DNA of 64,000 bases from Tubulanus polymorphus (taxonomy: Eukaryota > Animalia > Nemertea): contig NC_134026.1 of NCBI RefSeq assembly GCF_964204645.1, forward strand, positions 28,864,150-28,928,149, given 5' to 3'. The notes under the pieces are model-generated. The model ran no database searches and was not told the DNA's origin. It saw only the letters and a list, made by a program, of their open reading frames with translations. Positions within the stretch are counted from its first letter, which is position 1, and each line of letters starts with the position of its first letter. Below are positions 4,613-44,006 of the stretch, one piece after another. Position numbers and translations under genes: made by a program.

Positions 4613-7600
4613 TTATAAATGAGTTATAGCATCTTCATCAGATACCAATCCAGCATCGTACTGACCAGTGGACGGTACACGTAGTAAATGGGACCCGTGT
4701 CTACCACTGCTACTATCTGAAGAACTAGAATCGGATGAACTAGAACCTCTTCGCAATGAACCTTGAAATCCGGCGTTTAACTGTGAATTGTCAGGGCTCT
4801 GGTCCCCTTTTGCTCGAAAACCTGTCATCTTCAATCCACCTGTATCAACACTCATCTATAAGAATATGAATCAAATCGTTACAGCGATTGTTTATGAGAA
4901 ATAAAATCAGACTCATTTTGTTAGATGTACAGTGGTTAAATATGAGATAGGAGGTTACGAGCTTCAGTTTCATTTCATTTGCTTCAAGTTTTCTTTTAAA
5001 ATTAGAATAGTTTTGTTAGATATATAGAAGTAACATAGTTAAATCTGTTACGAGCTGGTTAAGATATCTTTGATCCCAAGGTACATATTATTAGAATAGT
5101 GCAATGTGTTATGTACCTTGTACGGTTTTATTCCGTCCTGTGCTTTCTTCGGAGTGACGCGTGTACTAAGCTCAGGTCTTCTTACCTTCTTCTTCCTATC
5201 ATCGTCTTTCTTGATGTCTTCCTCGCTCGATGAAGACGTGGTTGAATGTTTATCAGACTCTACTTTTATCTCAGGCAAGTCGGCAGTAGGTTTAATTTTG
5301 ATATCTTCATCAGTAGTAAGATGCTTCTTTTTCTTGTGATGTTTCATCTTTTTCTTAGGTTCAATTTTTGTTCCCGCGGTAAATAGCTCTGGCTGTGCAT
5401 GAGCCTGAACTTCTATATCTGGTACAACAACATCTACATCCGAAGTTGTAATTGCATGCCACTCTGGAGGTGTAACGTCAAGTCGCTTCTGTTTCTTATC
5501 GTGATCGCTTTCTGATTCATCACTTTTTGATTTTTTCGATTTACTTTTCTTTTTTGGTAAATGTATTCCTCCTTTTCCAACATTGAACTTCCCCTTGTGT
5601 TTCTTTTTATGATCATCGTCGTCTTCGTCACTAGAGTGTTTCTCTTTACTTTTAATTTTTGGTGAAACATGATGCATCTTAGGTGTCAAGATACCTAGAT
5701 GTGCCTTAGGCTGCTTTTTCTTTCGTTTTGTATCATCATCAGAATCAACTTTGACTTCAATATTTGGTTCTACATTGAGCGTGTAATTGTCTTTCTTCTT
5801 TATTCTCGGACTTGGGACCCTTATTTTCTTGGTTTTTGGTTTATCCTTACGTTTATCACCACTTTCACTCGAAGAAGATTCGGGATGCTTCACATGTATT
5901 TCGGGAGGACTCTTTTCTATACTTAAATCCGGTGTCATATCATAATCTTTTTTCTTCCCAATACTTGGACTAGGTACAGAAATATTCAATTTATTCTTTT
6001 TCTTCTTTTTGCCATCACTACTTTCATTAGATGATTCGGCCTTCTTCGTAATCCTAGGACTTGGTATGCATATTCCACCAGAAAGTTTAGCCTTATGCTT
6101 TTCGTCACTGCTATCACTACTGTCTTCTTTGTCAACAGTTATTTCCGGTGTTTTAGTTTCAACATCAACATTTGCCTTTGGCTTTTTCTTTCGACCAAGA
6201 TTTGGACTAGGGAAGCGGAAACCACCTTTCACCTTAGACTGTTTAGGCTGCTTTTCACCATCACTTTCACTGCTTGACTTTCTATCATCAGAGACGTCAA
6301 CTTTGAAGCCGACATCTGGTACATCTGCATCTATTTCATGTTGCTTCTTTTTCTTGCCTAATTTTGGACTAGGAAAATGAATTCGACCTTTGCGTTTTGT
6401 TTTTAGCTTATCTTCGTCATCACTACTATTACCGGAACTACCATTCTCTTTTGATGGCTTCTTCTTCTTCTTCTTCTTGTCTGGTTCATCTTCACTATTT
6501 TCATCCTCGCTTCCAGATTTTTTGCTTCGCATCTTGAGCCGTGGTGATGGGACTCTAAGGTTAAAACCTTTTTTATGTTTCTTTTCATCACCACTCGACG
6601 GAAGCCCGATATCGGCTTCAACATCGAGTGTAGGTGCTTTTGGTTTATGATGCTTAATCTTTATCTCCTTTTCTACTTTAACCTCGGGAATCTTGTCATC
6701 GTCGGATATATTCCCTTGCATTTCAATAGATGGAATATTCATATCTATCCTACCCTTTCGATCATTATCAGAGACGTCTGGTGACCAAGTATTAAGCTCA
6801 ATTTTGTCTGGTTTCTTTTTGTTCTTATGTTTCTTGGGTTTCTTTTTCTCGTCGAAATCGCTTCGATAATCTGGAAGAGCAGCAACGACAGACATTTGAC
6901 CCTTCTCAATTTTTTCATCTTCATCTCCACTATCTATTTTTACTTCTTGTTGAAAGGTAAATCCACCAATGCTTGCTCGCTTTTTGAGTTTACCTTTCAT
7001 GCAGCATGGACTGCATGGTTTCTTTTTTTTTCTTTTGGTTGACGTCATTGCCTTGCCATCTGCCCCAACAGCTACTGTAACGTCATCATCGGACGAGACC
7101 GAACCGCAACATAGACAACATCGGGACGACCCGCAATGGTTTTCCTGTTTGATGACCTGTGTTTTTCCATCAGGACCAATGACTATAACTTCAGAGTTGT
7201 CTTCGGCACACGGTGAACAAGGGCTGCAAGACCCATTTGTCTTATATTTTCTTTCTTTTTTGACAGCTTGTGTTTGACCATCAGGACCGATAACTATATG
7301 TTCATCATCAGAATCTGCATGTGCCGAACAAGGACAGCATGGGCTACATGTACCACCATGTTTCTGTTGTTTCATGACCTGTGATTTTCCATCTGGTCCA
7401 ATTACGATAACTCTTTTAGAACTAGATGACTTGCAACACGAGGAACCCTTATCATTCTGTTTTGCCTCTTTTCTGACCACTTTTGTTTGTCCATCAGGAC
7501 CAACAACAATGTGATGTTCATCATCATCCGAGTCCGAATGTGCACAACATGGGCTGCATGGACTGCCGTGTTTGTTTTCATTAACGACCTGTGATTTTCC

Positions 7601-10600
7601 ATCTGGTCCCACAACAATAACCTTTTTGGAACGAGGTGATTTACAACATGATGAACACAGGCCGCGCTTATTCTTCTTTTTTTCCTTTTTAACAACTTTT
7701 GTCTCCCCATCAGGTCCGACAACAATTTGGTGCTCTTCATCAGAATCAGAGTGTGTGCAACAAGTACAACATAGGCTACATGAACCACCGTGTGTCCTAT
7801 CTTTAACGACCTGTGATTTTCCATCTGGTCCCACAACAATTACCTTTTTCGAACTAGACGGAATGCAACATGGTGAGCACGCGCTGCCCTTCTTTTTATG
7901 TTGTTTCTTCTTTTTGACAACTTCTGTTTCTCCATCAGGACCGACAACAATTTGGTGCTCGTCATCGGAATCCAAGTTGGCACAGCAGGTACAACATTGA
8001 CTACATGGACCACCGTGTTTCTTTTCTTTAATGACCTTTGATTTTCCATCTGGTCCCACTACTATAACTTTTTTAGAAGCAGATGACTTGCAACATGGGG
8101 AACACAAGCTGCCCTTGCTGTTCCGTTTTGTCCCCTTTTTGACCACTTCTGTTTCTCCATCAGGACGGACAATTATATGATGTTCTTCATCGTCCGAGTC
8201 TGAATGATCACAACATGGGCTGCATGGACCGCCGTGATTAGTCGTTTTTACAACGCGTGTTTTACCCTCTGGATCTATCACAATTACTTCTTCTCCTGAA
8301 CCGGAGCCTATACAGCACGGTGAACATGAAGCACCACCACGTTTCCTCTTTCGTTTCTTCACGATGTGTGGTTTACCGTCGATCTCAACATGATGCTCTT
8401 CATCCGATGCATTATGGCCAAGGCAACACGGAGAACAAGGACTACAAGATGTGTGTTTCTTTGTGCGCACAGTGTGTGACTTTCCATCGTCTCCAATAAC
8501 TATTACCTCTTCATCGGATGAACCATCACAGCATGGGCTACAAGGAGAACATTTAGATTTCTTTCCGTGTACAATTCTTGATTCTCCATCTTTTCCTATG
8601 ACCATTACTTCTTCATCCGATTCTTCGCAACATGGGCTGCATGGACAGCATTTTGCCTTTTTATTGCACCGCACAGTTTTAGTTTCACCATCTGCGCCAA
8701 CTACAATTTCTTCGTCACTTGTCTGTGCAGCACAACATGGACTACAAGCGCAGCTGTTTCCGCCTTTTTTCTTTCTTCGCACAGTTTTAGTTTCACCATC
8801 TGCACCAACTACAACTTCTTCGTCACTTGTCTGTGCAGCACAACATGGACTACAAGCGCAGCTCTTTCCGCCTTTTTTCTTTCTTCGCACAGTTTTAGTT
8901 TCACCATCTGCACCAACTACAATTTCTTCGTCACTTGTCTGTGCAGCACAACATGGACTACAAGCGCAGCTCTTTCCGCCTTTTTTCTTTTTTCGCACAG
9001 TTTTAGTTTCACCATCTGCACCAACTACAATTTCTTCATCACTTGTCTGTGCAGCACAACATGGACTACAAGCGCAGTTCTTTCTGAATTTTTTCTTTCT
9101 TCGCACAGTTTTAGTTTCACCATCTGCACCAACTACAATTTCTTCATCACTTGTCTGTGCAGCACAACATGGACTACAAGCGCAGCTGTTTCCGCCTTTT
9201 TTCTTTCTTCGCACAGTTTTAGTTTCACCATCTGCACCAACTAAAATTTCCTCTGTCGACTCGTCATCACAGCATGGGCTACAAGGACAACATTTATTCT
9301 TTCTTCTTCGTACATTATTCTTTTTCCCGTCCTTCCCTATAACTTCCTCTTCTTCTGAAGAACCATAACAACACGGACTACATAAAAGGAGACAACTGCC
9401 ACGCTTATTGTGGCCTTTGTTTCTCGTCTTGCCATCGGCTCCGACAACGACTTCATCGTCATCTGTAGAATCATCACAGCATGGACTACACGGGCTACAG
9501 ATAGCTCGTTGTCGTTGTTTCCTTCGAAGTCGTTTTCGTCTTTTACCCGAAATGCCACCACCAACACCTAAATCAGTTTTCAGTTCTCCCTCGTCATCCG
9601 TATCTGATCCACTGCCTTTTTCTCTCATTTCCTTCTGTCCCTTCGCATCACCAGACCAACCACTCTCGACATCGGATCTGAGTCGGTTTTTCTTACGTTT
9701 TTTTCGACAACAGCCGCAACATAAACACCAATCATCACACCACCCTCTACAGCACCCGAATACAATACAAATAATGATCAACAGCGCCAATAAAACAGCC
9801 AGCAAAATTACAGCGACTAACAACTGCATTCTTGCTCCTTAAATGAAAATGTTCAAAACGATTATTTCAGTTATCATTTAGCTATATCATGAAACCCAGG
9901 TAAATGCTGCCCTACCTATTAATATGGGAGCTCCGATTGGTGCTGCAGGATCTGAAATGAATTCATATATTTCACGTCGAGCAGAGATTTTTCAAATTGA
10001 TATTGAAATTGACACTGACATTGAAACTTACATAAAAAGTTAATGACTGTCGAACCTCTACCATTTGGACCATGATATTTTGGGTCACCTAGCTTGAAAA
10101 CCTGTGCTCGTTTTGCGGGGGGCATTCCACCAGGGATTCCACCTGCAGTTGCTCTACGCCTTCTAGCTACGGTGGTGTCTACGCCCATTGCATATGCTAC
10201 TAACATCGGCATGTTGGTTTTAATGAAATCATGGTCAGTTGATTCATTTGCTGAAATTCGAAAAGACGCCACATTTGTTTTATTCTACAATGTCTAATCA
10301 ATTCCAAAAGCAAAGTTCACAATTGGAGCATACCTTGCAGTTTTTTTCTGAACGCGACAAATGTATGTGTAGACGTCTGATAACCGACGACACCGGTGAG
10401 TGAATCAGTGAGTCCGAAATATGAATCTTCTAATGGATAGGCTGTACCCCACGAGTATAGATCCCGAATTCTTGTCTTATTTTTAAAGACTGACACTATG
10501 ACCATATCTAGGCAGGTCATGCTCGTAAATGCTATTTGAAAACAAACATATAACAACATTTAGGATTTCCTTAGCAGCAACTTCAAATTGGACAATTCAC

Positions 10601-13600
10601 AATACTCACTGAGGGATTTGGCTGTTGCCGCGGGGAAAGCCGCACCACCCGGTTGTAATGGGACAGCACCCGTGCCACTACCTAGGGTAGTGGTCGGTAC
10701 TTTCAGCCAGTCATTACACGTATTATTCAAAATACCTGAAATAAGGATTTGCGATTTCATTCCAGTCATTCCATATTAAGACTTATTAAGTAAAGGAAAT
10801 GATCGTACTGTTTGGTCGCCAACCGATTCCAACCCAGGATGGTGTCTTCACGTCCAATATCATCTCAATCTCATTCGTACTCTGAAATACATAGATACTG
10901 GATGATGTAACTTAATCATGTTGCTTGGATTTCTGTCCCATGTCACACATTACTACTATGCCTATCCAGATGCGCTTACATTTAGTACTTTCCAGTATAG
11001 GATAAAATCACTGCGTAATGTTTGTTTCTGGTAAATATTGATGTCCTGATATGATTTGGGTAGTGAGGTAAGTGATGATTCTAAAAAGGAGAATTATACA
11101 TAAATCTAATATTATTTCTAGATGAGAAATATCTATTTCGAAAATAATAGTTTTAGGCGTTTCCTTCATGAACAGATTTTCAGGTGCACCTACTTCTATT
11201 ACAGTATTTGCCTATCCAGCCTTGGTAGCAATAGCATCGTCTTCTGGGGTATGTGACAGATGCCATGTCGTAACAGATACCATTATTGTTACAATCAGTT
11301 GTATCCCAACATTCATCTAAACAAAGTCACAGATATGTAGGTCCATAAATCGATATGTGATAAGTTGATCTTGAAGTACTGAACATACGGTATTTACCTT
11401 TGTACTGACAGAATGCCCCTGCGTAAAGCTTCGAACAAACGCACTTATTTCCATTCCAGCTACCATTTGATCCACAAGCGGCTGTCTTATTGAAAGAAGC
11501 TGAAAAAGACGAACACTACGTGAGCCATAGAATTACTGTACAGTCGTTTCTTTTTTTTACTTTCGTCACCGATGAACTAGCGATCCCACTTAAAAACAAA
11601 GATTTACAAACCTGTGGCAACAATGTTGACATCAGAACATGACCAATAGTAAGTGGTATTAGCCGAATCAAAAAGCAGAACCCGCAGGATACAATTCTGA
11701 CAGGTGTGAGCTGCGGGAAATGTCAATTGGAATTCCTCTTGTCTATAAAAAAAATTCACACGAAATGATAATTTAGTTCAATTCTCTTGGCATATCCTCT
11801 TCAAATGACTTACGTGTAGATAGCCGGTGCTCCAAACGTTGGTTGGTTAGCATTAACAGCTGGAATCACATTGGATATAAGCTTTCCCGTTGCATCCAAA
11901 ATTTGAACTATCAAACTTCCCTTTTGAAATTTAGAATAAAAAGAAAACATTCCAAGTAGAGTGATTTAAATAGAGATCACAAGTATGATCTAAAACAGCG
12001 ATTATTCCTGTTTTCATACACACCTTCTCTATAACTGCCACTCTAAACATGATTTTAACTGCGACTCCTGCTTCGATATTTACTGGATTTGTTCCTAAGT
12101 ATGAAATAGAAATACCCCCTTCATAATGTTATGGACAATTATATGGACAATGACGATCAGCAATCATTCATGTTATAATGTTTTGCTTTTGAAAATGATG
12201 CCGATTTTTGCAGTAAGTTATAGAGTCTAAGTCTTTCTTCCTGTTAATACAATTCGTTGAAATTTCGTTGGTATTTTTAACGTAAAGTACGTGGATTGAC
12301 CTGAGGGTCGATGGGGTGTTTTTCTCTTGAATCTGGTCTGGGCTTCATATTTAATCGCATCTGACCTAAAAATGCCCAGCGAAATTCTAGCCATAATGAA
12401 CGGCACTGTCCATAAATAATTGATAAAATCTGTATTACAGATAGAATTTTTTGACGATATTTTGTCGCTTTTATCATTTCATTAATGGGCAGGTCTCCCA
12501 ATAGACCTACTCACTACTTATATTTGCATACTTCAACATATTAGGCCAAGTACTGTTTTCGATACTCTTTTTCTGAACTCTGGTACTTGTATTAGTTACT
12601 TATATGTGAATGAACCACCCTTAGCAAGGTTTTACACGAATTGGTCATGAATATCCGCGAGCATATCGACCTAACTATCATTGAGTTCTTCTACAGTAGC
12701 TTTTTCCCTCGTGAATCTTATGGACTTAATAAAAATCGAATCCTTTATTCAAAAAATTATAAAATTCTTACAATAGAACAGCACCATTATTAATATGATT
12801 ATAAATATTAGTATATATATTATAATATATTGTCTCTGTGGCGCAATCGGTCAGCGCGAAGGTTGGTGGTTCAAGCCCACCCAGGGACGCTTTATACTTT
12901 TCACTTTATTCTAAAAATACATCCTTATGTATTTCTGCTGTATGAAAAGCTGTTACATTTTAATCTAGATTGATGTTTCTAACGCCTACTATATATTCAA
13001 AATATTTCGTTGCAATCGGTACAAGATATGGGTGTGAACGATCATGCATAAGTGCCATTAAAAATTCCACTGACGAATTCTGAGACTTTGTGGTTTTTAA
13101 GTAGGGCGTCGAGGAATAGGTTTCGAATTGACAAAATTGTTTACAGTTGAATCAACAGTGTGTATTTTTATTTTCTACCTAATGCCGACTCATTGGTTCA
13201 TCGGTGAAATTATGTTTGTCATTATATAACTGCGTTAACTTTTGCGTACTATAGAATAAACTTGTGTATTATTCAGACATTATGGCAATGCTCGTCGTCT
13301 TATTTGAAAAAAAAAGTATCACTTTTATAATTTGACTACTTTTTTCATTGTATATATATATACTATTCAATTCTATTCTTGATGACTGTCCCACGAACCA
13401 TAGTTTTATTTACCCCAGTGAAGAATACTTAGCTTTATGTATAATGACAATAGTAAACGTTTGGATAGTGGAAGAATTTGGGGTAAGGACGGGTGCGGTA
13501 TTTACTCACTGCAGTAATAAGGTGGCTTACTACAAATAGATACCTGTTTATTGACTGGATAGGTGCATTTACTATCATTTATTGAGCGACAAAATTGAAA

Positions 13601-14188
13601 TTCTACAATAATTATAATATTTCACTAGATTATTGTTTTCATTCATTTATGAACGTCCAAAGTGGTCCAAAATAAATACTTCTAATAATAAGAAACGAGA
13701 AAACTAAATATGCCAGTGCTCCACCCTACGTACGTAACTTCTTAAGTTAATATAGAAAACATATACGTATACGATTAAAAACATATGGACCAATAGAAAG
13801 GTTTTCTACAAAATAGGGTTCGATAAATATTATCTGAAAACACTTTTTCTGAAAAAAAAAATAATTTCATATTTTTTCTTCGCATACTTTTAGACTTTTG
13901 TTTGTGAATGAAATGAAAATGATCTGCGCAAATTAATGTTGATTTCAGTACATGTAAAAAGCAGTTTAAAATAAGTTAAAAATATGATTTCGCTTTAAAT
14001 TGATACATAGATAACATACCGGGTGTTTTATCCATTCCACCGCAAATCGGATTGGTATTTTTGTAGTTGAGATTATCGAAAGCGTATCTTCTCGCTGGTG
14101 GCCAAAGTAACGAAATATGACCGCTACATTGATGGAACATCATCAAAGCCGAGATGGATATTCCAAGGTATAACTTGAATACATCCAT
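4613..14188 (-). CDS. Giant type I membrane protein (~2139 aa): signal peptide, His1 LPMO-like domain, 2x EGF, DOMON, TM, Cys-rich repeat and Lys/Asp/Ser-rich cytoplasmic tail
   Basis: 14 phase-consistent GT-AG exons: 14188-14020, 12094-12024, 11920-11814, 11742-11612, 11499-11398, 11316-11194, 11080-10980, 10881-10809, 10735-10610, 10531-10334, 10250-10032, 9951-9916, 9837-5117, 4855-4613 (sum 6420 nt). Motifs: CSG|HISLLWPPARRY..PICGG..TCQNCILR..YYWSCSDV; CGSNGSWNGNKCVCSKLYAGAFC; ECWDTTDCNNNGIC..RCYCYQGWIGKYC; LYWKVL..IEMILDVKTPSWVGIGW..SMTCLDMVI..FRKKL..DHDF..KYHGPNGRG; TM LLVAVILLAVLLALLIIICIVFG. Confidence 0.85.
8671..9243 (-). repeat. Coding minisatellite, 108-bp (36-aa) unit, about 5.3 near-identical copies
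   Basis: gcacagttttagtttcaccatctg recurs at 8671, 8779, 8887, 8995, 9103, 9211; encodes CSPCCAAQTSDEEIVVGADGETKTVRRKKKGGKSCA. Confidence 0.95.
12832..12889 (+). pseudogene. tRNA-Asn(GTT)-derived sequence lacking the anticodon arm
   Basis: GTCTCTGTGGCGCAATCGGTCAGCGCG joined directly to AAGGTTGGTGGTTCAAGCCCACCCAGGGACG matches the 5' and 3' halves of the canonical metazoan tRNA-Asn. About 16 nt (TTCGGCTGTTAACCGA) are missing. Acceptor stem GTCTCTG/CAGGGAC still pairs. Confidence 0.88.
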
Positions 14189-15781: not shown

Positions 15782-16496
15782 TCATAACACGTCGGGTTTT
15801 GGTGAATGTTCTTCAACGCAGTCATTAAATGTTTGATATAAAGACATACAACGTTCTACTGAAGTAGGATTTACACGTATGCACTGATTATATTTATCAA
15901 ACACATTCGCACAATCCAATTTGATTTTCTTAATCACCGGACTGAAAGAGAAAATACATCATGAAGAAAGTGAATATCTTGCCGACACGAAAAGCACAAT
16001 TTTATCACAACTTTACACTAATAAAAATGACAATATTACTACATTTTGCTATATCTAGGCTTAGATTTAGGATTAGAGTTAATAATTTTAGGGCTGGAAT
16101 TAGGAGCAGGGTTAGTACGTTGTCCTTGGAGAAACAGGGGAATCTGTACATTGTCTACAATTAACTAACTGTGTATCTGAACAGCGAGCAACTGATAGTC
16201 TCAACATGTCGCATGTAGATGGCCACGAATGAGGATGTTTTTCGACACATTCTGCATATTTTGACATTTCAGAACTACAATGTTTCATCACTAGTTTCAT
16301 CGTGGCATCCCTACACAAAAAAGAAAAAAAAATATTTAAAACAGCTAGAAATCTGTCCGTTATCATCCATGCCCGCCGGCATCGCTATCGTCAGACCGGG
16401 GTGTCACACAGACAGTACGCTTTTAATACCGACGTCGGACGTGGTGACGGTAGGAAAAAACCCCAATAAATGGAAAATATACTTTTCAACTCACAT
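15782..16496 (-). CDS. CHCHD5: CHCHD5, mitochondrial intermembrane-space protein with four CX9C motifs
   Basis: Exons 16496-16495 (AT|gtgagt), 16310-16170, 15941-15782. MDATMKLVMKHC-SSEMSKYAE-C..C-DMLRLSVAR-C..HPVIKKIKLDC-ANVFDKYNQ-C..C-MSLYQTFND-C. The start codon is split by an intron. Confidence 0.88.
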
Positions 16497-17159: not shown

Positions 17160-18353
17160 ATGATGGCCTCAGCATCATCAGTGAAGAAGGGAATGCGGCG
17201 GTTCTCGGCGTTACCAGTTTATGTAGTTGATGACCACAATGAAGTTCTACCATTCATATACCGATGCATCGGCTCCAAACATCTTCCGATGTCCGGAATA
17301 AAGATCATTCATTTTGACGCGCATCCTGATCTTTTGATTCCCGCTGAATATCCCGCCGACAAAGTGTTCAACAAGGACGAACTTTTTGAAGTTTTGAGTA
17401 TCGAAAATTGGATAATGCCGGCCGTTTACGCAGGTCACATAGATTCAGTGGACTGGGTTAAACCGGCGTGGGCGCAGCAAATACGAGAAACAACAATGAA
17501 AATTACTGTGGGAAAACATCGAACATCTGGAACTATAAAACTGAACAATACTGAAACATATTTCATGAGTGAACTATTATACGCTCCGAACAGTGAGCTT
17601 CTCAATCAGAAAGGGTTAAACGTTTCCGTTAAAACTCTTCCTCATATCCTGAGAGCTAATAATCCTGTAGCAGGGGAACCAGATTCCTCGGAGCACCAAA
17701 AACATGGTTTAAAAAGATCTGCATCTGGGGATTTTATAACTCAATGTGATGATCAGTTTTTCATTCTGGATATTGATTTGGATTTCTTTTCAACTGTGAA
17801 TCCATTCAAATCTATATATACTGAACATCAGTATTCATTGTTGAAACAGATTTTCCGTTTTCAGCCACCGACAAACTCTAGTGAGAAATCTATCCAAATG
17901 TGCCTGGAAAATCGACAGAAACAACTCGCTGAAATTAGGCTTTTTATCAAGGAAGCCGTGCTGGAAAATAAAACCTCAAAAACTTCAATTACCGGTAATG
18001 AAAATATTTCAATGCGTAGGAAATTGGTCCATGAACTGATTTCTGAAATATGTGCTAAAACCTCTGAAGAAATTGATATTGATCAAATCATGCAAACAGG
18101 TTTCACTTGTGATGACGACAGTGAACTTCCTCATCATATTAGTTCCGATGAGGAAATTCACCGATTAATACTTAATGTCAGCGATTATCTGAAAGATTTA
18201 CCTCATAAACCGACTATAGTTACGATAGCTAGATCGAGTAGTGATGAGTATTGTCCATTAGATCAAGTTGATCAGATTCAATCGTTGGTTTTTGACTTAC
18301 TTACCAAACATTACGGTGAATTAAATGTAACCTTGAAATATAAGGATGATTGA
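17160..18353 (+). CDS. C5orf22: UPF0489 family protein (C5orf22 homologue), single coding exon
   Basis: LPVYVVDDHNEVLPFIYRCIGSKHLP, HFDAHPDL, LSIENWIMPAVYAGH, ILDIDLDFFSTVNPF, ELPHHIS and TIARSSSDEYCP motifs. Confidence 0.92.
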   Translation: MMASASSVKKGMRRFSALPVYVVDDHNEVLPFIYRCIGSKHLPMSGIKIIHFDAHPDLLIPAEYPADKVFNKDELFEVLSIENWIMPAVYAGHIDSVDWVKPAWAQQIRETTMKITVGKHRTSGTIKLNNTETYFMSELLYAPNSELLNQKGLNVSVKTLPHILRANNPVAGEPDSSEHQKHGLKRSASGDFITQCDDQFFILDIDLDFFSTVNPFKSIYTEHQYSLLKQIFRFQPPTNSSEKSIQMCLENRQKQLAEIRLFIKEAVLENKTSKTSITGNENISMRRKLVHELISEICAKTSEEIDIDQIMQTGFTCDDDSELPHHISSDEEIHRLILNVSDYLKDLPHKPTIVTIARSSSDEYCPLDQVDQIQSLVFDLLTKHYGELNVTLKYKDD

Positions 18354-41217: not shown

Positions 41218-41964
41218 TTCTTAAACAGGTTCACGACAATGAGATTCGACAATGTGCTGAAGGTTGGGGTGAAAAACAAACGTTAGATATATGTCTCTTG
41301 AAATGAATGTAGCTGACGCTAACTCCGCTTGCCAGTGCCAGCACCACTAGCATTAACCCCGCTTGCCAGTGCCATCATCACTCGCTTGCCACAGACCCTG
41401 CTCGCAGGTTACGGTGACGAAGTGTTTGACAATTGTACAAACTCAAGGTCGTAGAGCGAATTCCTGAAGCTGAAACGATTTTCGATGATTTTTTTACATA
41501 AATTGTCATAGGTGATTAGCAAAGCAAATGATGTATATGGCTAAAGGTTTAAAATCATTCATTATTTATTTGAGCATTGCGCTTGAGTTTGAAATTGCCA
41601 CTCATTCAATCATTCAATGCATCATTGAAAATCAAACCAAATCGAATTATAATAAGGTCATGCACTCAAAGTCCAGGCCCCTTGGCCATGTTGGCCTTGT
41701 CCTTGTGACGCAGATAATGGACAATGTTAGGCCTACAGTTAACCAGTGCACAGAGCGGTCAATCACTTGCATGCTGACACTGATATAAAGATATTTTATG
41801 AACACTATGCATCCTCTCTATCATCTTTTGTGACAATCCCTTGTGGTTCTATGTGACAATCCCCTGTAGTCTGTGAGCCACATTAACTCTGCCACATGAT
41901 ACTTATTAACAACATGCTTATTGTAATAATTTCAGAGTCAATGGTTGGGAGAAAGTAATGAAAG

Positions 41965-44006
41965 ATGTTGGCAAAATTGAATCAACGCGCTTTGGCCTAT
42001 TCGGGTGCATCATTGGGAGCCTCGATCGTTCACTCAGTTTTTATGTTTTACTATGTGAAAGTTTTCCTAAATCGTTATCACGTTACAGAGTGGTGGTTCC
42101 AAGTCTCCCAGACGCTATTTCTCATCTGGAATTCAGTGAACGATCCACTGTTTGGTTATTGTCAGGATAACGTGAAGATGAAATGTTTTCAAAGTCGGCG
42201 ATTGATCATACTGAGCGGGTCGTTTCTCTTTTCGCTATCATTCCTGGTTCCGTGGTTTCCATGGACGACCGATCCGAAAAATGAATGGATCGTCGGATTA
42301 CATCTTATCGTAGCTTTATTCTTCTACGACGCTATGTTCACCTATGTATTGATCGCTCATGCTTGTCTATTCGCTGAACTTTCCACAAGTATCGAAGATA
42401 GAATTCGTTTAGTCCGGTATACACGATTTGCCTCATTGATCGGTGGTTTATCCGTGTTTATATGCGAATCAATCTCGAGGAATTTGAAGAATTATCTAGC
42501 GTTCCAGATCACATGCGTTGCTCTCGCGCTGATATCTTGGCAATGCTTTCGTTATACGGGTAACAATTGCCACACTGAATGGGATCTGAAAGCTAAAGAA
42601 GAACACGGCAATGAGGATGCAGTCGCTGACCGCTCAAGTCAATACACCTGGTGGCAGTTGGTTAAACAGCTATTCACGAATCGTAATTTCATCTGTGCAG
42701 TTTTGCTCACTTTATTCTCAGATTTTCATCGTAATTATCTCAGTAATTTCATGGCGATAATTGGCGACAGTTTGCTACCAAATCTTAATTCTGGAACCCG
42801 AAGTGTTTTGTATGGAGCTTCTACGTTTTTACCACAGGTACTGCTCAGAGGACAGTTGCTCGAAAGTTGGTTAGAAATAATGGACGAATACCATGGTAAC
42901 AATTTGAATACAATTTCAATTGTCGCTATGTCATTTATCCACTAGTTAACCAGATATCTAAATTAAAATGTTGATTGTTTCAATTATCCGGTCGTGCTCC
43001 TATCAGCAGATATGTGTTCATATTTTTCAGATTTTGATCATTGTTTCTACTCCACTTCTATCGAAATTTGGATATTACAGAGTAATGGGACTGATGATAT
43101 TATTGAAAATTATGCTTGGTCCCTGTATGTATCTGATTGGTCGATCGTCCATTATATTGTACGCTATATATCTCCTTTTAGAAGGGTAAGACATTTCTGA
43201 ATGATAGGCTTGTTATATTTTCTTTTCGATTCTGATATCCTATGTTTAATACTTAAAGGTGTGTAAGTACATTAGTTGCTGGTCCATTCGCTCTGATGTT
43301 TTCTGATGTCATTGATGAAGACTGTCTTAAATATAAACGGCGGTATGTACATTCATTGAATCAATTATGGATTAGGCTAAACAAAAATGATACCTTGTTT
43401 CTCCGCAGCGGCCGGGTCATTTTTGTAAAATATGATAAAATTTATAAACAGTTCATTTCTATAGCGGCCGGGTCTATTATGGTAAAATTGATCACGATTT
43501 TAAAAAAAGTAATGTATAGGGTAGATAGGCGGCTGGCCGGGTCAACATTTAAGCTCACCAGAGCGGAGAAACAAGGTATCAATTTTTTTTAGCCTTACAG
43601 TCAACCCCCATTCCACTCTAACGCCAGGTTTTTTCTAAAAGAAAGGAACTTCTGTATTTTGTCTTGGAAATTAACGATATACCACTATACTTATCTTTTC
43701 TCTTTCAGCCATCCAATTTCAGCAATGGTGTTTGCAGGAAATGCTCTCATCGTAAAACCTGCGCAGTCATTTGCACCTATGATAACTGTAGCGATTTTCA
43801 ACGCTTATGGTTATGAGAAACTTCCTAAAAATAACGTTTTGTCGGTCGCAGCAGATTCTAGTTTCACGCCGCTATTTGAGACAATGTTTGGATATTCATG
43901 TTGGTTACCATGTGTCATCGGTTTGATACAGATTATATTGTGGAAATGCTTCACAATAAGAGATACACACAAAACTATCCCTGTATACAATGATAATGTT
44001 TGTTAA
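41965..44006 (+). CDS. MFSD13A: MFS-type transporter MFSD13A (TMEM180), 4 coding exons
   Basis: VFMFYYVKVFL..IWNSVNDPLFG, FLVPWFPW, YDAMFTYVLIAHACLFAE, DVIDED..Y.R, PISAMVFAGNALIVKPAQSFAPM. Exons approximately 41965-42837, 43031-43185, 43259-43342, 43710-44006. Confidence 0.88.
43375..43594 (+). mobile_element. 220-bp PIF/Harbinger MITE, copy 2 (MFSD13A intron)
   Basis: Same TIRs as copy 1; TTA target duplication. Confidence 0.92.

What the first reader, a model, noticed from the sequence alone, without database searches (positions are those of the whole stretch)
11612..14119. Histidine brace looks broken: candidate pseudo-LPMO
Seen: His1 and a Tyr at the likely axial position (YYWSCSDV) are present. 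The segment that normally carries the second copper His (W-x5-H-x-G; I recall WHLAYPHRGG in family homologues) reads FRVAVIEKGS here. The only other His in the domain is in AAHTCQNC. Inference: the second brace His is replaced by Glu. That implies either a catalytically dead, substrate-binding paralogue repurposed as a receptor, or a non-canonical His/Glu metal site.
Basis: partly seen in the sequence, partly recalled or inferred. Interest (0 to 1): 0.75.

Follow-up and report, generated by a model that had tools for sequence, protein, structure and literature searches.

The report
Nahoda paralogue with broken histidine brace
An intact animal gene of the little-studied Nahoda family encodes a predicted cell-surface protein whose copper-enzyme-like domain has a glutamate where its relatives have the second copper-holding histidine, so it likely no longer cuts polysaccharides, though it may still hold copper.

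Summary
Observation confirmed. The stretch is the first domain of a predicted 13-exon, 2081-codon gene: signal peptide, LPMO-fold domain starting at His1, two EGF, DOMON, one membrane helix, 1568-residue repeat tail. It is a divergent Nahoda-family gene. Glu79 sits where 118 of 120 listed homologues have His, and a conserved 71-nt exon fixes the register. That His aligns with brace His91 of AA15. The change is wider than one residue: 15 of 21 highly conserved polar or aromatic positions are altered, while 15 of 21 Cys, Gly, Pro and aliphatic ones are kept. Variants show purifying selection (8 synonymous, 6 not; p=0.004). Best reading: a likely catalytically dead LPMO-fold recognition domain. 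A His/Glu copper site like YcnI stays open (about 0.25). No relative sharing the Glu was found. Stink-bug (His to Gln) and nematode homologues lost the His separately. Corrections: the family's axial residue is Phe, and intact members are also membrane proteins. One His-bearing 71-nt intron stretch has poor splice sites; there are no RNA data. The scan noted this family before, brace intact, on other DNA.

The parts
14020..14188 (-). Exon 1: predicted signal peptide (14188-14120) and start of the LPMO-fold domain; His1 codon 14119-14117
   Evidence: weak Pfam BIM1-like hit E=0.018, below cut-off
12024..12094 (-). Exon 2 (71 nt, phase 1 to 0); Glu79 codon 12029-12027 at the second brace His position
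11814..11920 (-). Exon 3, LPMO-fold domain
11612..11742 (-). Exon 4, end of the LPMO-fold domain; His128 at 11708-11706, Tyr148 at 11648-11646
   Evidence: Pfam LPMO_10 E=0.026, below cut-off
11194..11499 (-). Exons 5-6 (11499-11398, 11316-11194): two EGF-like modules
10032..11080 (-). Exons 7-11 (11080-10980, 10881-10809, 10735-10610, 10531-10334, 10250-10032): DOMON domain; Met339 (10520-10518) and His460 (10074-10072) kept
   Evidence: Pfam DOMON E=1.1e-6 on the exon-10 ORF
9916..9951 (-). Exon 12, short linker
9755..9826 (-). Predicted single transmembrane helix (about residues 490-513), followed by a Cys cluster and basic residues
   Evidence: hydropathy windows
5048..9754 (-). Rest of exon 13 (9837-5048): 1568-residue predicted cytoplasmic tail rich in Lys, Ser, Asp, Cys, with 24 Cys-Cys motifs and 108- and 225-nt tandem repeats
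   Evidence: no homologue at E<=0.001 for ORF residues 1-260 among 7974 candidates scored
13434..13504 (-). Intronic 71-nt open stretch with His as second-last codon; GAG acceptor, GC donor; probably chance, the only rival for exon 2

Best explanation
This is an intact, divergent Nahoda-family gene for a predicted single-pass surface protein whose LPMO-fold domain has Glu in place of the second brace His and is likely a catalytically dead recognition module. Shown: the open spliced frame, the homology, the His-to-Glu change and the loss of most other conserved polar and aromatic residues. Inferred: those residues form the copper and substrate face; the fold and disulfides persist; the rewritten face would bind a partner in the extracellular matrix or on a neighbouring cell rather than cleave chitin; the Cys- and Lys-rich tail would anchor or cluster the protein inside the cell. 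His1 may still pick up copper without polysaccharide cleavage. I put 'does not cleave polysaccharide' at about 0.85 and this full reading at about 0.58.
For: Nahoda naming of homologues and E-values down to 1e-63; the window protein matches them at 27-34% over the first 270 residues and scores 71.8 bits on a diverse domain profile. The family His aligns to His91 of TdAA15A, the second brace ligand (PMC5823890, passages). A model of family member L042 matches AA15 best (Z 9.5, rmsd 3.7, 129 aligned). Of 42 columns conserved in at least 95% of 120 homologues, the window keeps 15 of 21 Cys/Gly/Pro/aliphatic but 6 of 21 polar/aromatic. The Halyomorpha homologue P0093 lost an overlapping set (D, R, His to Gln, R, E, W, Y), His to Gln is shared by Nezara P0157, and Rhabditophanes P0143 lost both His, so brace loss recurs in the family. 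Purifying selection: 8 synonymous and 6 non-synonymous variants (p=0.004), none non-synonymous in the ectodomain, and all six 1-2 nt indels in introns. Precedent: second-His mutants of the AA11 CWR-1 lose chitin cleavage yet still trigger allorecognition (PMC9550227, passages).
Against: His1 is kept on a very long branch (3.36 changes per column), the replacement is a carboxylate and the axial position is still aromatic; that trio fits a metal site. DOMON Met339 and His460 are kept, which would suit a retained redox role (ligand assignment recalled from the DOMON literature, not read here). No activity has been shown for any Nahoda protein in my searches, so 'dead' is relative to a presumed enzyme. 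No partner is identified and no model of the window domain itself was made. There are no RNA data, and an intronic His-bearing stretch scores 70.8 against 73.5 bits for exon 2.
Confidence: 0.58

Rival explanations
1. The domain keeps a selected His1/Glu79 'monohistidine brace' copper site, as in bacterial YcnI, and would act in copper sensing, delivery or peroxide generation at the cell surface, possibly fed by a DOMON heme.
For: Glu lies exactly at the His2 codon. His1 is retained although only 6 of 21 conserved polar/aromatic columns are. YcnI binds Cu(II) with N-terminal His plus Glu50 at KD about 2 nM (PMC8424229, passages). CWR-1 H78A still binds copper and reduces oxygen. DOMON Met and His are kept.
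Against: No other sequence has Glu here: 0 of 120, and none among the 36 hits to the DOMON exon, whose best identity was 46%. Other brace losses give Gln or lose both His. The whole loop around Glu79 is rewritten (W73F, H74R, Y77V, G82S), so the geometry may not hold. YcnI has a different (cupredoxin) fold and needs a Trp; the family's conserved W142 is lost here.
Confidence: 0.25
2. The stretch at 13504-13434 is a real alternative or ancestral exon 2 that restores the His, so the brace is intact in some transcripts.
For: Same length (71 nt) and phases, His as second-last codon, Phe at the Trp column; the best of 200 simulated introns reached its score only 5 times.
Against: The acceptor is GAG (0 of 12 real acceptors of this gene) with a CAG 4 nt upstream, and the donor is GC in a poor context. 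Without the His column it scores 0.8 against 12.4 for exon 2 (14 of the 19 alignment rows used). It lacks Gly57 and Gly66 and puts Gln in a hydrophobic column. Exons 1 and 4 have lost face residues whichever exon 2 is used.
Confidence: 0.05
3. It is still an active polysaccharide monooxygenase, with a His/Glu/Tyr site and a new substrate.
For: His1, an axial aromatic residue and the DOMON Met/His are present.
Against: Second-His substitution abolishes cleavage in CWR-1 and, as cited there, in CBP21 and CbpD (His to Ala, not Glu). Conserved face residues are lost.
Confidence: 0.07
4. It is a decaying pseudogene or an assembly artefact.
For: Very long branch; no RNA evidence.
Against: 2081 open codons over 12 GT-AG introns; synonymous excess and frameshifting indels only in introns; overlapping contigs cover exons 1-12 and intron 1 without a joint.
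Confidence: 0.03

Closest known systems
Nahoda family (insect 'DOMON-like domain-containing protein nahoda' and unnamed homologues in annelid, snail, nemertean, nematode)
   Same: His1 LPMO-fold domain, two EGF, DOMON, membrane helix; first three intron positions match genomic relatives; DOMON Met/His kept.
   Different: His2 to Glu and loss of 21 of 42 highly conserved domain positions; a single DOMON; a 1568-residue Cys/Lys-rich tail with no homologue found.
Lineus longissimus LOC135486457 (P0156)
   Same: Best single match (237 bits, 34% over 413 residues); compact layout with one DOMON, helix and disordered tail; shares D41N, H74R and loss of W142.
   Different: Keeps the second His (with a one-residue insertion); shorter acidic tail. 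Sister grouping is unstarred (89/82) and flagged as long branches meeting.
AA15 LPMO TdAA15A (PDB 5msz)
   Same: Closest solved structure to the family by profile (E=1.6e-4) and by fold of a family model (Z 9.5).
   Different: TdAA15A has His1/His91/Tyr184 and is a secreted single domain; the window domain is about 134 residues, lacks His91's equivalent and is membrane-tethered.
YcnI / DUF1775 monohistidine brace
   Same: N-terminal His with a Glu in place of a second His; binds Cu(II).
   Different: Bacterial cupredoxin fold with a conserved Trp; His/Glu conserved in about 60% of that family, but seen here in one sequence; no homology claimed.
Neurospora CWR-1 (AA11)
   Same: LPMO domain used for recognition independently of catalysis.
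   Different: Natural CWR-1 has an intact brace and is active; the His mutants are engineered.
AA9 members with Arg/Lys at position 1, and Egh16-like proteins
   Same: Natural LPMO-fold proteins reported without a full brace (PMC6950343, passages).
   Different: AA9 variants lose His1, not His2. For Egh16, a later paper models a His24/His72 brace in TrsA (PMC12377627, passages), so that precedent is disputed.

Membership tests
Nahoda family | Sequence homology over LPMO-fold, EGF and DOMON domains | tested here: met
   BLASTP E 1e-48 to 1e-39 against 13 long members; domain profile E=1e-23
Nahoda family | Domain order signal peptide, His1 domain, EGF, EGF, DOMON, membrane helix | tested here: met
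Nahoda family | Orthologue of insect nahoda rather than a paralogue | tested here: inconclusive
   Long branch, no starred clade holds it; no genome to count copies
LPMO (histidine-brace enzyme) | N-terminal His after signal peptide cleavage | tested here: met
   His24 after C-S-G, same column as 118 of 120 homologues; cleavage itself is predicted
LPMO (histidine-brace enzyme) | Second His completing the brace | tested here: not met
   Glu79; His128 is in a non-His column
LPMO (histidine-brace enzyme) | Axial Tyr or Phe | tested here: inconclusive
   Tyr148 at the family's conserved Phe; profile alignments to 5msz stop before Tyr184, so the axial assignment rests on a recalled motif
LPMO (histidine-brace enzyme) | LPMO beta-sandwich fold | tested here: inconclusive
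   Shown for a model of homologue L042 (mean pLDDT 70, residues 4-24 under 50), not for the window domain itself
LPMO (histidine-brace enzyme) | Copper binding and oxidative polysaccharide cleavage | not testable with these tools
   needs purified protein
AA15 | His1/His91 brace as in TdAA15A | tested here: not met
Monohistidine brace (YcnI type) | N-terminal His and a Glu positioned to share a Cu ion | not testable with these tools
   Sequence position fits; no coordinates are returned, so no distance could be measured
Monohistidine brace (YcnI type) | Glu conserved among relatives | tested here: inconclusive
   0 of 120 homologues have Glu, but no close orthologue was found
Heme-type DOMON | Met and His heme ligands (assignment recalled) | tested here: met
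   Met339 and His460 match motif positions that are Met in 108 and His in 106 of 108 homologues with the motif; heme binding untested

The most novel reading that the evidence does not exclude
An animal LPMO-fold domain has turned its bis-histidine brace into a His1/Glu79 monohistidine copper site, converging on bacterial YcnI, and works with a heme DOMON as a cell-surface copper or redox sensor signalling through a long Cys-rich tail.
Probability: 0.25. Interest if true: 0.8.

Novelty: new variant of a known kind. Interest (0 to 1): 0.45.

Why it matters
The histidine brace is described as an invariant unit. A natural His-to-Glu version in an LPMO fold, in a gene under purifying selection, is a ready-made test of whether the second imidazole is needed for copper binding as opposed to catalysis. 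Together with the stink-bug and nematode losses, it suggests that the widespread, unstudied Nahoda proteins have a non-enzymatic surface role that can outlive the brace. If the domain is simply dead, it is one more pseudo-enzyme in one genome and of modest interest.

Tried and rejected
No whole genome is held, so a paralogue with an intact brace could not be sought. A six-frame profile scan of the window found no second copy. No RNA holder was listed; runs X1-X3 are contigs of one study and show no joints. Word searches with exon 4 and with the first 260 residues of the last-exon ORF found nothing. Single exons found nothing in the PDB. The Atlas gave only scores under 0.9. The one HMMER library search used the DOMON exon because single LPMO exons were too weak in a local test; it gave 36 hits and no close orthologue. 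Alignments of exon pieces with homologues misplaced exon 2; A1 served only as a search query. Trees did not place the gene, and shared departures with Lineus (15 of 49) are proportionally no higher than with Owenia (7 of 21), so I do not claim orthology. P0117, one of the two non-His rows among the 120, looks like a wrong exon call and was not counted as a brace loss. The Foldseek PDB search was not run. No complex was predicted, as no binding pair is claimed. Searches for a paper on Nahoda function or on a natural His/Glu LPMO found none in the listings; most subscription papers are not searched and no supplements were read.

Full report
Gene model. The finding lies on the minus strand of an intron-rich, AT-rich animal sequence. 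Thirteen exons from 14188 to 5048, joined at 12 GT-AG introns, give one open frame of 2081 codons. It encodes a predicted signal peptide (1-23), a domain starting at His24, two EGF-like modules, a DOMON domain, one hydrophobic helix near residues 490-513 and a 1568-residue tail rich in Lys, Ser, Asp and Cys. The model rests on splice signals and homology; no RNA run was listed.

Family. A short degenerate pattern returned 80 metagenome stretches. Most encode the same family, and 14 held the whole domain. A profile search returned 190 proteins, of which the best 120 were listed; several are named nahoda. This list favours canonical members. The window protein matches them at 27-34% over residues 24-294. 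A HMMER search of 1.84 billion representatives with the DOMON exon gave 36 hits, none above 46% identity, so no close orthologue is on hand. Its cluster look-up gave the best single match, Lineus LOC135486457. Trees leave the gene on a long, unplaced branch.

The family is LPMO-like. Of 19 diverse domains, 16 hit Pfam LPMO_10 and 13 hit BIM1-like at E up to 0.1. The only notable PDB sequence match is TdAA15A (E=1.6e-4), with the family's His aligned to His91, a brace ligand according to PMC5823890 (passages). A model of member L042 (mean pLDDT 70, N-terminal loop poor) matched AA15 (Z 9.5, rmsd 3.7, 129 aligned), then AA16, AA11 and AA13. PMC6950343 (passages) notes an early-branching group with DOMON/EGF and LPMO_10 domains. 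My searches found no functional study of Nahoda (listings only).

The substitution. Glu79 occupies the column that is His in 118 of 120 homologues. Exon structure fixes the register: the window's exon 2 is 71 nt with Glu second-last, L051 has the same 71-nt exon with His second-last, and four further genomic loci (two distinct sequences) have a donor right after His-x. Contigs of three runs from one study show no difference in this exon. His128 sits in a Phe/Leu column. By the strand order and the remark in PMC6950343 that the conserved Pro is distal, it is inferred to be at the far end of the fold. Tyr148 replaces a family Phe (117 of 120).

Alternative exon. A window scan found no His-motif exon close to family scores (best intron window 12.9, exon 2 14.4, family 83-95). 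Of 85 spliceable candidates, exon 2 scored best (72.7 bits), but 13504-13434 came close (70.1). The best candidate of a simulated intron reached it in 5 of 200 trials and reached exon 2 in 1 of 200. Against it: a GAG acceptor, a weak GC donor, and almost no fit outside the His column (0.8 against 12.4). I give it about 0.05.

More than one residue changed. Of 42 columns conserved in at least 95% of homologues the window keeps 21: 15 of 21 Cys/Gly/Pro/aliphatic, 6 of 21 polar or aromatic. Losses include F39, D41, R44, W73, H74, Y77, the R-x-A-x-E-W motif and Y146. That these form the copper and substrate face is inferred from LPMO topology; no coordinates were available. The stink bug Halyomorpha lost an overlapping set with His to Gln, shared by Nezara, while Rhodnius and Rhynocoris keep His; a Rhabditophanes protein lost both His. 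Brace loss therefore recurs, but Glu was seen only here.

The gene is maintained. Of 32 listed base differences, 14 are coding: 8 synonymous and 6 not, against an expected synonymous share of 21% (p=0.004). The three in the ectodomain are synonymous. All six 1-2 nt indels are intronic, and the one coding indel is 3 nt. The numbers are small and may reflect one or two individuals.

Mechanism. The likeliest reading is a catalytically dead LPMO-fold domain serving as a recognition module on a surface protein (0.58). CWR-1 shows that second-His mutants lose cleavage, keep copper and still work in recognition (PMC9550227, passages). The main rival is a selected His/Glu copper site (0.25); YcnI proves such a site can bind Cu(II) at about 2 nM (PMC8424229, passages). 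In its favour are the retained His1, the carboxylate, the aromatic axial residue and the DOMON Met/His. Against it are the absence of any relative with Glu and the rewriting of the whole loop. The two readings overlap, since His1 alone may bind copper. PMC10952591 (first fifth read) calls the brace an invariant unit. PMC12377627 (passages) models a full brace in an Egh16-like protein, which weakens that family as a precedent for losing His2. No supplements were read; they could list brace-less members.

Earlier notes. One earlier finding of this scan (e1-7393255) described a brace-intact LPMO-like plus DOMON gene in another animal genome; five other look-ups returned nothing.

Verdict. The feature is real and is a new variant of a known kind. 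Interest 0.45, rising to about 0.8 if the His/Glu site is shown to be selected and copper-binding.

Noticed in passing
window 5048-9754 (-): The predicted cytoplasmic tail has 24 Cys-Cys motifs alternating with acidic-Ser, V-V-G-x-D-G and poly-Lys blocks, then six hydrophobic-Pro-Ser-Pro motifs. No convincing Pfam hit. The juxtamembrane Cys cluster suggests palmitoylation, and the later part recalls AHNAK/periaxin-type repeats (both from recall).
   Followed up: partly
P0093, P0157, P0159 (Halyomorpha, Nezara): Stink-bug Nahoda has His to Gln at the second brace position and has lost D, R, E, W, Y motif residues, yet groups with His-bearing Rhodnius and Rhynocoris proteins (100/99). Whether these bugs have an intact second copy was not checked.
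   Followed up: partly
P0143 (Rhabditophanes): Nematode homologue with Asn at position 1 and no second His.
   Followed up: partly
window 12830-12897: A short tRNA-like fragment in intron 1, apparently lacking an anticodon arm (resemblance recalled; ARAGORN and Rfam did not call it); high contig depth there points to a multi-copy element.
   Followed up: partly
window 15782-16384 (-): Small gene with twin CX9C motifs (Pfam CX9C, E=6e-12) just upstream.
   Followed up: no
window 17160-18353 (+): A 397-codon open frame with a UPF0489 domain (E=2e-54), apparently without introns in an intron-rich region.
   Followed up: no
window 41962-44006 (+): MFS_2 sugar-transporter-like gene (E=9e-14).
   Followed up: no
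P0117 (Lutzomyia entry): Its exon-2 segment is replaced by an unrelated Val/Gly-rich stretch, probably an annotation error; a caution for counting brace losses from databases.
   Followed up: no
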